Source: Escherichia coli
GTDB taxonomy: Bacteria > Pseudomonadota > Gammaproteobacteria > Enterobacterales > Enterobacteriaceae
Assembly: GCF_003334335.1 (NCBI RefSeq)
Contig: NZ_QOWQ01000007.1
Reading direction: 5' to 3' (one strand)
DNA: 64,000 nucleotides
Shown here: positions 63,092 to 63,670 of the stretch, piece after piece
How positions within the stretch are numbered: position 1 is the stretch's first letter
Layout of the letters: every line of letters begins with the position of its first letter
Program-made: the position numbers

Positions 63092-63670
63092 TTACCAGGA
63101 TGATTCTCAAAACAGCACAAATAATCAAAGATGATTTTTTCGGGAGCGATCCCGTTGACGCCAGAGCCACCAAGGGGTGACGCACGTCACATTTCTATTC
63201 ATAAGTAGCGTTAATCATTCATATCGCGAATATTTTCTTGTCAGCGAAAAAAATTGCGGATAAGGTGATGAACACATCAGATTTCCTGGTGTAACGAATT
63301 TTTTAAGTGCTTCTTGCTTAAGCAAGTTTCATCCCGACCCCCTCAGGGTCGGGATTTTTTTATTGTGCATTCAACGATTCACTTCAGAGACGCTGAAGTC
63401 ATGAATATCCAGTTCGAAGGCATCCGCCAATTCACGCCATGTATGATATTCACGTCCATCGACGCTAACGTGTTCAGAATCGTTCTGGCTGCGATGAACT
63501 TCGCTTTCGCTAATTTCATTGATCGCCGCCAGCAGGGCATCGACATCGACGCTGACCTCACGTTTTGCGGTATCGCTGTACTCTTTTGCGGTTTTCATCA
63601 TCTTTCCTCGCAACCGTTACTCTGTTGTTGCCGCCAGTCGTTAAGTCCGCCTGGCATCTCTTAAGTATAG

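What the first reader, a model, noticed from the sequence alone, without database searches (positions are those of the whole stretch)
63271..63357. DsrA sRNA intact, convergent with yodD
The full DsrA sequence, including the region known to pair with rpoS and hns mRNAs and the terminator, is present on the plus strand. yodD is encoded on the opposite strand only 14 nt downstream, so the DsrA terminator may act bidirectionally.
Basis: partly seen in the sequence, partly recalled or inferred. Interest (0 to 1): 0.3.

Follow-up and report, generated by a model that had tools for sequence, protein, structure and literature searches.

The report
DsrA small RNA gene facing yodD
This is the well-known E. 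coli regulatory RNA gene dsrA, base-for-base identical to the laboratory strain, and published RNA-end mapping shows that its terminator hairpin also marks the end of the oppositely transcribed yodD message; this is an ordinary, already documented arrangement.

Summary
Window 63271..63357 (+) matches Rfam DsrA (RF00014) at 102.5 bits against a threshold of 60. Window 63226..63760 is 100% identical to E. coli K-12 MG1655. That stretch covers the dsrA promoter, dsrA, yodD and the yodD-dsrB spacer. The rpoS- and hns-pairing regions therefore carry no substitution.

yodD (63371..63598, minus strand) converges on dsrA. Its stop codon lies 13 nt after the Rfam end and 9 nt after the end annotated in MG1655.

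The "bidirectional terminator" idea is partly borne out by published Term-seq on the identical MG1655 sequence (Adams et al. 2021). The yodD mRNA 3' end maps to window 63327 (minus strand), 4 nt past the reverse-complement hairpin. It appears in stationary-phase LB and in minimal medium. The two RNAs therefore overlap by 29-35 nt.

The yodD side has no U-tract (2 T in 8, against 7 in 8 on the dsrA side). This asymmetry holds in all 67 enterobacterial species parsed. The site is therefore not a canonical two-way intrinsic terminator. It fits the known class of overlapping terminators between convergent genes, or a protective hairpin reached by exonuclease trimming.

The convergent layout is conserved in 79 of 80 species loci. 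Verdict: already known, low interest.

The parts
63238..63243 (+). dsrA promoter, -35 hexamer TTGTCA
   Evidence: Read from the sequence. It sits 17 nt upstream of the -10 hexamer. The sequence is identical to MG1655 from -45 onward. The assignment as the dsrA -35 rests on my knowledge of Repoila and Gottesman 2003, a paper that is not held. The consensus scan did not call it because the -10 is weak.
63261..63266 (+). dsrA promoter, -10 hexamer TAAGGT
   Evidence: Read from the sequence and identical to MG1655. It matches TATAAT at 3 of 6 positions, so it was not called by the scan. The assignment is from established literature (memory), not tested here.
63271..63361 (+). dsrA gene (DsrA sRNA), 91 nt as annotated in MG1655. 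The Rfam match ends at 63357. The Term-seq dominant 3' end is at 63355. The TRS terminus mode is 63364-63366.
   Evidence: Rfam RF00014, 102.5 bits. 100% identity to MG1655 b1954. The MFE fold is -31.9 kcal/mol, z = -5.7, with three stem-loops. The 3' ends are transferred from MG1655 coordinates 2025229 and 2025218-2025220.
63274..63292 (+). Stem-loop 1 (DsrA nt 4-22, AUUUC pentaloop), which is opened on pairing with rpoS mRNA
   Evidence: Fold. The nt 4-22 definition and the G19-U7 wobble come from PMC5766208. 99.1% of cells are paired across 79 species.
63279..63311 (+). rpoS-pairing region (DsrA nt 9-41 in the computed duplex; the experimentally defined core lies within nt 1-32)
   Evidence: RNAduplex against the MG1655 rpoS leader pairs DsrA 9-41 with rpoS -127..-96 at -33.0 kcal/mol. 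None of 300 shuffles was as good. The published construct pairs DsrA 1-32 with rpoS -119..-95.
63301..63313 (+). hns-pairing core (DsrA nt 31-43)
   Evidence: It forms 13 contiguous base pairs with hns +7..+19, read from the duplex. For the whole duplex, 1 of 300 shuffles was as good, so the statistic alone is weak. The register agrees with the published one (memory: Lease, Cusick and Belfort 1998).
63331..63355 (.). Shared palindromic hairpin. On the + strand it is DsrA stem-loop 3, the stem of the intrinsic terminator. On the - strand it is an 11-bp hairpin at the end of the yodD 3' UTR.
   Evidence: Terminator scan, + strand: 10 pairs, 7 of them G-C. Free energy is -18.5 kcal/mol on the + strand and -19.4 on the - strand. 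Five of 10 pairs show compensatory changes and 94.5% of cells are paired across 79 species.
63355..63361 (+). U-tract of the dsrA terminator (7 T)
   Evidence: Sequence and terminator scan. The tail has 6-8 T in 8 in all 67 species parsed.
63362..63370 (.). 9-nt spacer between the dsrA T-run and the yodD stop codon
   Evidence: Sequence and MG1655 annotation. The spacer is short in nearly all species but not conserved in sequence.
63327..63370 (-). yodD 3' UTR (44 nt). The mRNA 3' end at 63327 lies 4 nt past the hairpin and is antisense to DsrA nt 57-91.
   Evidence: Term-seq of MG1655 gives a 3' end at 2025257(+), classified 'primary yodD, antisense dsrA'. It has 11,227 reads in LB OD 2.0 and 2,463 in M63, and is absent from the LB OD 0.4 list. 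It was transferred to the window through the gap-free alignment. The tail GAAACUUG has 2 U in 8.
63371..63598 (-). yodD coding sequence (75 aa, RpoS-dependent stress protein), convergent with dsrA
   Evidence: ORF. The nucleotide sequence is identical to MG1655 b1953. RefSeq names it 'peroxide/acid resistance protein YodD'. The promoter is described as 'most purely RpoS dependent' in bioRxiv 10.1101/2023.11.09.566509.

Best explanation
The feature is the chromosomal dsrA gene of Escherichia coli, in its usual place between yedP and yodD-dsrB-rcsA.

**What the RNA does.** It makes the ~85-91-nt Hfq-dependent sRNA DsrA. The 5' part (stem-loop 1 plus linker) pairs with the rpoS leader to open its inhibitory hairpin and activate translation. 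The middle part pairs with hns mRNA to repress it. Stem-loop 3 plus seven U is a Rho-independent terminator.

**What the DNA does on the other strand.** The same palindromic DNA, read on the opposite strand, gives an equally stable hairpin 9 nt after the yodD stop codon. In vivo the yodD mRNA ends 4 nt beyond that hairpin. One hairpin therefore defines the 3' ends of both convergent transcripts, which overlap by about 29-35 nt.

**How each direction works.** The dsrA direction is canonical intrinsic termination. The yodD direction has no U-tract. There the hairpin most likely acts as a pause or barrier and as a protective 3' cap. Polymerase release would occur either on the spot, as in the 'overlapping bidirectional terminators' of convergent gene pairs (possibly helped by head-on encounters with the far more active dsrA transcription), or a little further on, followed by exonuclease trimming back to the hairpin.

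**Shown versus inferred.** Shown: identity, structure, target complementarity, layout, both mapped 3' ends, and conservation. Inferred: the way polymerase is released on the yodD strand.
For: **Identity**
- Rfam DsrA at 102.5 bits, full length.
- 100% identity to MG1655 over 63226..63760.
- MG1655 annotation gives the order dgcQ-yedP-dsrA-yodD-dsrB-rcsA, and the same order is seen in a 100%-identical wild strain.
- The promoter-dsrA-yodD-stop stretch is at least 99% identical in 5262 of 5339 E. coli genomes.

**Structure**
- The fold gives three stem-loops with z = -5.7.
- Stem-loop 3 has compensatory changes in 5 of 10 pairs across 79 species.

**Targets**
- DsrA 9-41 pairs with rpoS -127..-96 at -33 kcal/mol, and 0 of 300 shuffles did as well.
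- The hns +7..+19 / DsrA 31-43 duplex is present.
- Both registers agree with PMC5766208.

**Terminator**
- The + strand hairpin is followed by TTTTTTAT.

**yodD end**
- Term-seq places the 3' end at MG1655 2025257(+), which is window 63327. It appears in two of three conditions, the ones in which RpoS is active, and in the same table the DsrA end is at 2025229(-).
- yodD is RpoS-dependent.

**Conservation**
- A convergent yodD homologue follows dsrA in 79 of 80 species loci with enough flank.
- The yodD stop lies at position 83-106 from DsrA +1 in 72 of 77 distinct sequences.

**Class**
- Bidirectional terminators between convergent E. coli genes that do not resemble intrinsic terminators are described by Ju et al. 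2019, as summarised in bioRxiv 10.1101/2022.10.23.513370.
- Adams et al. count 99 3' ends that are both 'primary' and 'antisense'.
Against: - The yodD 3' end rests on one study. The TRS data set lists only the DsrA terminus at this site in the parts of the files held.
- No terminator-like site is called on the minus strand. The tail after the hairpin has 2 U in 8 here and 0-2 in all 67 species. Efficient hairpin-driven release there is therefore not expected from sequence.
- The two data sets disagree on the exact DsrA 3' end: 63355 against 63364-63366.
- All experimental data come from MG1655, not from the strain of the window, although the sequences are identical over the whole region.
Confidence: 0.85

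Rival explanations
1. Read-through and trimming. Polymerases from yodD pass the hairpin, transcribe antisense across dsrA and stop diffusely further on, by Rho or otherwise. PNPase and RNase II then chew the RNA back to the stable hairpin. On this reading the hairpin is a protective cap for yodD mRNA, not a terminator.
For: - Dar and Sorek 2018 show that Rho-dependent E. coli transcripts end precisely just after stable stem-loops that lack U-rich tails and are trimmed by PNPase and RNase II. The yodD end fits this description: 4 nt after a -19.4 kcal/mol hairpin, with tail GAAACUUG.
- The first ~80 nt downstream on the yodD strand are mildly C-over-G (22% C, 14% G).
Against: - No Rho termination region is listed within MG1655 2025000-2025399. 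That experiment was done at OD 0.5 in LB, where the yodD end is not detected, so it is uninformative.
- Over the whole 253 nt to yedP the C/G ratio is 0.98.
- Full read-through would produce RNA complementary to all of DsrA. No 3' end on that strand further down is listed in Term-seq.
Confidence: 0.4
2. Canonical bidirectional intrinsic terminator. The hairpin flanked by an A-tract and a U-tract terminates both directions by the standard hairpin-plus-U-tract mechanism.
For: The hairpin is a near-perfect palindrome and is equally stable on both strands. The two genes are convergent and 9 nt apart. The mapped yodD end is next to the hairpin.
Against: - The + strand has no A-run before the hairpin (CAAGTTTC). 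The yodD-strand tail is therefore GAAACUUG, with 2 U in 8, against 7 in 8 on the dsrA side.
- The scan calls only the + strand.
- The asymmetry is universal: 0-2 T against 6-8 T in 67 species.
Confidence: 0.05
3. Duplex cleavage. The yodD 3' end is made by RNase III or another nuclease cutting a duplex between longer yodD read-through RNA and abundant DsrA.
For: Read-through yodD RNA would be perfectly complementary to DsrA. DsrA is about 50- to 300-fold more abundant in Term-seq reads.
Against: The end sits at the base of an intramolecular hairpin rather than inside the complementary region. That position is what hairpin-dependent mechanisms predict. No data on RNase III dependence were found.
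Confidence: 0.05
4. The yodD 3' end in Term-seq is noise or a mapping artefact, and the arrangement has no consequence for yodD.
For: Only one data set shows it. The read counts are modest, and it is not in the TRS lists seen.
Against: The same nucleotide passes curation in two independent growth conditions, each the average of two replicates. It is absent in the one condition where an RpoS-dependent gene should be off. yodD has no other structure between its stop codon and dsrA, and in several species the stop codon touches the T-run.
Confidence: 0.05

Closest known systems
DsrA sRNA of Escherichia coli K-12 (b1954; Rfam RF00014)
   Same: The sequence is identical over the whole RNA and its promoter to -45, with the same neighbours and orientation. 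It has the same three stem-loops and the same complementarity to rpoS and hns.
   Different: Nothing within the gene. Nine substitutions lie further upstream in the yedP-dsrA spacer.
Overlapping bidirectional terminators between convergent E. coli genes (Ju, Li and Liu 2019; for example ynaJ-uspE in Wang et al., bioRxiv 10.1101/2022.10.23.513370)
   Same: It is a convergent pair with one shared hairpin. The two 3' ends lie on opposite sides of it, so the RNAs overlap by a few tens of nt. At least one direction does not look like an intrinsic terminator.
   Different: - Here one direction (dsrA) is a strong canonical intrinsic terminator, and one partner is an sRNA rather than an mRNA.
- Expression of the two partners is very unequal.
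- Whether this pair is in the SEnd-seq list could not be checked, because the paper is not held.
- Dependence on collisions is untested.
Protective 3' stem-loops of Rho-dependent transcripts (Dar and Sorek 2018)
   Same: The mRNA 3' end lies immediately after a stable stem-loop that is not followed by a U-rich stretch.
   Different: Those stem-loops lack the upstream A-tract, whereas here an A7 run precedes the hairpin on the yodD strand because it is the complement of the dsrA U-tract. Rho or exonuclease dependence is unknown for yodD.
Symmetrical A-tract/hairpin/U-tract bidirectional intrinsic terminators (such as the synthetic one quoted in PMC12266141)
   Same: A palindromic G+C-rich hairpin placed between opposing transcription units.
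   Different: A U-tract is present on one side only.

Membership tests
DsrA sRNA (Rfam RF00014) | Covariance-model score at or above the curated gathering threshold over the full model | tested here: met
   102.5 bits against 60, model positions 1-85 of 85, E = 1.4e-19.
DsrA sRNA (Rfam RF00014) | Three stem-loops, with SL1 at nt 4-22 carrying an AUUUC loop and SL3 as terminator | tested here: met
   MFE fold at -31.9 kcal/mol, z = -5.7. SL1 and SL3 are 99.1% and 94.5% paired across 79 species, and SL3 has 5 covarying pairs. Definitions are from PMC5766208.
DsrA sRNA (Rfam RF00014) | Complementarity of the 5' part to the rpoS leader around -119..-95 | tested here: met
   The duplex pairs DsrA 9-41 with rpoS -127..-96 at -33.0 kcal/mol, and 0 of 300 shuffles were as good.
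DsrA sRNA (Rfam RF00014) | Complementarity of nt 31-43 to hns mRNA just after the start codon | tested here: met
   13 contiguous pairs with hns +7..+19 are visible in the duplex. The whole-duplex energy alone is not exceptional (1 of 300 shuffles).
DsrA sRNA (Rfam RF00014) | Conserved genomic position downstream of rcsA-dsrB, next to yedP | tested here: met
   ORFs and annotation. The same neighbours are found in 85 Enterobacteriaceae species loci.
DsrA sRNA (Rfam RF00014) | Expression, Hfq binding and regulation of RpoS and H-NS in this strain | not testable with these tools
   Inferred from identity with the K-12 gene and promoter.
Rho-independent (intrinsic) terminator, dsrA direction | G+C-rich hairpin immediately followed by a U-rich tract | tested here: met
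   A 10-bp stem with 7 G-C pairs and a 5-nt loop, then TTTTTTAT. The mapped DsrA 3' ends fall within or just after the T-run.
Canonical bidirectional intrinsic terminator | U-rich tract after the hairpin on both strands (an A-tract before it on the other strand) | tested here: not met
   The minus-strand tail is GAAACUUG, 2 U in 8. No site is called on the minus strand. The count is 0-2 U in 67 of 67 species.
Overlapping bidirectional terminator of a convergent gene pair (Ju et al. 2019) | Convergent transcripts whose mapped 3' ends flank one hairpin and overlap | tested here: met
   Using published Term-seq on the identical MG1655 sequence, the DsrA end is at 63355 and the yodD end at 63327, an overlap of 29 nt, or 35 nt to the end of the T-run.
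Overlapping bidirectional terminator of a convergent gene pair (Ju et al. 2019) | Independence of Rho | tested here: inconclusive
   No Rho termination region is listed nearby. However, the bicyclomycin experiment was done in exponential LB cultures, where the yodD end is not seen.
Overlapping bidirectional terminator of a convergent gene pair (Ju et al. 2019) | Termination depends on convergent transcription (polymerase collisions) | not testable with these tools
   This needs in vitro or in vivo transcription with the dsrA promoter inactivated. The model is described.

The most novel reading that the evidence does not exclude
The tight, family-wide convergence of dsrA with an almost purely RpoS-dependent gene could be a regulatory circuit rather than simple gene packing. 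In this circuit DsrA raises RpoS, and RpoS drives yodD transcription head-on into the dsrA terminator. The resulting collisions, or the 29-35-nt antisense overlap, would then lower DsrA synthesis, 3'-end quality or stability. That would be a local negative feedback on RpoS induction. The hairpin would at the same time shield dsrA and yedP from read-through.
Probability: 0.1. Interest if true: 0.5.

Novelty: already known. Interest (0 to 1): 0.13.

Why it matters
It matters little for discovery. DsrA is one of the best-studied bacterial small RNAs, and this copy is identical to the reference.

The useful outcomes are two. First, the annotation of the window is confirmed: dsrA is not annotated in the wild-strain RefSeq record checked. 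The hairpin does mark both 3' ends, but only the dsrA side is a classical terminator.

If the speculative feedback through RpoS-dependent yodD transcription were real, it would add a transcription-interference layer to the RpoS network. That idea is cheap to test.

Tried and rejected
**Literature look-ups that gave nothing**
- Ju et al. 2019 (PMC6814526, SEnd-seq list of bidirectional terminators) and Repoila and Gottesman 2003 (PMC262114, dsrA promoter) are not held.
- No supplementary tables are held for Dar and Sorek 2018, Herzel et al. 2022 or the Rend-seq annotation paper.
- yodD, dsrA and the coordinates are not found in the supplements of SMRT-Cappable-seq or TERMITe.
- TRS tables list the DsrA terminus but no yodD-strand terminus in the stored parts, which were cut when stored.
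- Text searches for papers linking dsrA or yodD with bidirectional termination found none that discuss this pair.

**Computations that gave nothing**
- The sigma-70 consensus scan found no promoter, because the known dsrA -10 (TAAGGT) is too weak for its rule.
- A permissive Rfam scan of 62900..64000 found nothing else credible on either strand. The anti-hemB, toxic-sRNA and similar hits are sub-threshold echoes of the DsrA hairpins.

**Reading rejected**
- I considered and rejected a symmetrical intrinsic terminator, because the yodD side has no U-tract.

Full report
**1. The observation**

The stretch 63271..63357 on the + strand reads AACACATCAGATTTCCTGGTGTAACGAATTTTTTAAGTGCTTCTTGCTTAAGCAAGTTTCATCCCGACCCCCTCAGGGTCGGGATTT. 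Rfam's covariance model for DsrA (RF00014) matches exactly these coordinates. The score is 102.5 bits against a gathering score of 60, with E = 1.4e-19 and the full model covered. It is one of nine curated RNA matches in the whole window.

**2. What the window is**

A 661-base query around the site is 100% identical to several wild E. coli chromosomes and is present in 5342 of 5426 complete E. coli genomes. The gene order in the window is as follows:
- dgcQ (+)
- yedP (-, 62258..63073)
- dsrA (+)
- yodD (-, 63371..63598)
- dsrB (+, 63761..63949)
- the start of the rcsA terminator region

This is the MG1655 order read on the other strand. The RefSeq record of the identical wild strain that I inspected does not annotate dsrA at all.

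**3. Precise alignment to MG1655**

A gap-free alignment of window 63074..63760 with the reverse complement of the MG1655 locus shows nine differences. All lie upstream of window 63226, in the yedP-dsrA spacer. From -45 of the dsrA promoter through dsrA, the spacer, the whole of yodD and the yodD-dsrB intergenic region, the two sequences are identical. There is thus no substitution in the rpoS- or hns-pairing regions or in the terminator. The 136 bases from the -35 hexamer to the yodD stop codon are at least 99% identical in 5262 of 5339 E. coli genomes.

**4. Anatomy and function of the RNA**

The RNA folds into three stem-loops at -31.9 kcal/mol, with z = -5.7 against shuffles. SL1 is nt 4-22 with the AUUUC loop, and SL3 is the G+C-rich terminator stem. 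Both match the NMR study of DsrA (PMC5766208).

Across 79 distinct DsrA sequences from different Enterobacteriaceae species, SL1 is paired in 99.1% of cells and SL3 in 94.5%. Five of the ten SL3 pairs show compensatory double changes.

Against the MG1655 targets:
- DsrA nt 9-41 pairs with the rpoS leader at -127..-96 at -33.0 kcal/mol, and 0 of 300 shuffles did as well.
- DsrA nt 31-43 forms 13 contiguous pairs with hns +7..+19.

These are the published registers (for hns, from memory).

The promoter hexamers TTGTCA (63238..63243) and TAAGGT (63261..63266), with a 17-nt spacer, are identical to K-12. Their assignment rests on literature I could not open.

**5. The convergent neighbour**

yodD ends with TGA at 63371..63373 on the minus strand. 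The distance to dsrA depends on which DsrA end is used:

| DsrA end used | Window position | Intervening nt to the yodD stop |
|---|---|---|
| Term-seq | 63355 | 15 |
| Rfam | 63357 | 13 |
| MG1655 annotation (end of T-run) | 63361 | 9 |
| TRS | 63364-63366 | 4-6 |

.

**6. Does the terminator work both ways?**

*Sequence.* On the + strand a 10-bp stem with 7 G-C pairs is followed by TTTTTTAT, a textbook intrinsic terminator and the only one called there. On the minus strand the same palindrome gives an 11-bp hairpin of -19.4 kcal/mol, against -18.5 on the + strand. It is preceded by A7 and followed by GAAACUUG, with 2 U in 8, and no terminator is called.

*Experiment.* Term-seq of MG1655 (Adams et al. 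2021, eLife, supplementary file 1) lists a 3' end at 2025257(+), classified 'primary: yodD; antisense: dsrA'. It has 11,227 reads in LB at OD 2.0 and 2,463 in M63, and it is not listed in LB at OD 0.4. The DsrA end at 2025229(-) has 6-9 x 10^5 reads in all three conditions. I checked the convention of the table (the 3' end is letter 51 of the printed string) with sgrS.

Through the gap-free alignment these ends are window 63327 (minus strand) and 63355 (+). The consequences are:
- The yodD mRNA has a 44-nt 3' UTR that ends 4 nt beyond the hairpin.
- It overlaps DsrA by 29 nt, or 35 nt for DsrA molecules that keep the whole U-tract.
- The growth-phase pattern fits the report that the yodD promoter is almost purely RpoS-dependent.

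**7. How the yodD end is made**

Three published frameworks apply.

(a) *A symmetrical intrinsic terminator.* This is excluded by the missing U-tract.

(b) *'Overlapping bidirectional terminators'.* These are found by SEnd-seq between hundreds of convergent E. coli genes. They do not look like intrinsic terminators and do not need Rho. They are proposed to work by hairpin-induced pausing plus head-on and trailing polymerase collisions. The dsrA-yodD pair has the defining geometry, and dsrA is transcribed far more heavily than yodD.

(c) *Diffuse downstream termination followed by trimming.* Dar and Sorek showed for Rho-dependent transcripts that PNPase and RNase II trim back to a protective stem-loop, and that the ends lie right after stem-loops without U-rich tails.

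I could not separate (b) from (c):
- No Rho termination region is listed within 400 nt. However, that experiment used exponential LB cultures, where the yodD end is not detected.
- The downstream sequence is only mildly C-rich.
- The SEnd-seq tables are not held.

I therefore commit to the shared-hairpin statement with high confidence and leave release on site against trimming at roughly even odds.

**8. Conservation**

An exact-pattern scan of one genome per species returned 85 loci, all Enterobacteriaceae. The genera include Escherichia, Salmonella, Citrobacter, Enterobacter, Klebsiella, Raoultella, Leclercia, Lelliottia, Buttiauxella, Atlantibacter, Siccibacter, Franconibacter, Trabulsiella and Pseudescherichia.
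- In 79 of the 80 loci with enough downstream sequence, a YodD homologue lies on the opposite strand right after dsrA, followed by dsrB.
- In 72 of 77 distinct sequences the yodD stop codon is at position 83-106 from DsrA +1. By my T-run parsing it lies -2 to 12 nt after the T-run in 65 of 67 cases.
- The spacer sequence itself is not conserved.
- The asymmetry is universal: 6-8 T in the eight bases after the hairpin on the dsrA strand, and 0-2 on the yodD strand.

No species has evolved a separate terminator for yodD. The exceptions carry insertions, which are ERIC-like in Buttiauxella.

**9. Comparison with what is known, and novelty**

The gene is DsrA itself, so nothing is new in the RNA. 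The two-way use of its hairpin is one more case of a described class, and the raw evidence is already in a public supplementary table. I found no paper that discusses this particular pair.

The only reading with some novelty is that RpoS-dependent yodD transcription running into dsrA feeds back on DsrA. Nothing here supports it beyond the wiring (DsrA to RpoS to yodD) and the strict conservation of the arrangement. I give it about 10%.

**10. Verdict**

The feature is already known, and interest is low.

Noticed in passing
window 63961..63986 (hairpin), mapped ends at 63990 (+) and 63955 (-): A second shared hairpin (CTGACTGGTGG-GAAA-CCACCAGTCAG) sits between dsrB and the convergent rcsA, which is cut by the window end. 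Published mapping puts the dsrB 3' end at MG1655 2024592-2024594(-) and the rcsA end at 2024629(+). The two RNAs therefore overlap by about 36 nt, and neither side has a U-tract. The small dsrA-rcsA locus thus holds two back-to-back overlapping terminators.
   Followed up: partly
window 63177..63190: The palindrome GTGACG-CA-CGTCAC differs from MG1655 (GTGACG-TG-CGTCAC) by a swap of the two central bases. This makes the window's 14-mer the exact reverse complement of the K-12 one. It looks like a small inversion of a hairpin loop in the yedP-dsrA spacer.
   Followed up: no
window 63355 versus 63364..63366: Two published data sets disagree on the DsrA 3' end. Term-seq places it at the first U after the stem (an 85-nt RNA). 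TRS places it 9-11 nt further on, 4-6 nt from the yodD stop codon.
   Followed up: no
L049:5046-5265 and L064 (Buttiauxella izardii, B. gaviniae): An insertion of about 120-135 nt separates dsrA from yodD. It contains the motif ...CACCCGAATCACTTACTTAAGTAAGCTCATCGGGATTCC..., which resembles an ERIC/IRU repeat (assignment from memory). These are the main exceptions to the tight dsrA-yodD spacing.
   Followed up: no
L090:1792-2489 (E. coli B-1109, NZ_CP117971.1): An IS1A element is inserted inside dsrA, after about nt 21 of the RNA. This makes the strain a natural dsrA disruption, and yodD and the DsrA 3' part remain.
   Followed up: partly
L002 (E. coli 600468, NZ_CP025849.1), locus 2475-2771: The RefSeq (PGAP) annotation of a strain with a 100%-identical locus lists no dsrA feature at all, unlike MG1655. 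The same record marks dgcQ as a pseudogene with an internal stop, whereas the window has an open 569-codon frame at 60552..62261.
   Followed up: no
window 571..694, 3433..3507, 25409..45183, 54779..54868: Other curated RNAs in the window are the his operon leader (-), STnc240 (+), four identical tRNA-Asn genes (three on the - strand, one on the +), tRNA-Ser(CGA), and the sRNA RseX (-). This is consistent with the his-to-dsrA segment of the E. coli chromosome.
   Followed up: no
E. coli genome search results: Two of the 5349 places matching the dsrA-yodD region are on records labelled as plasmids. They were not inspected.
   Followed up: no
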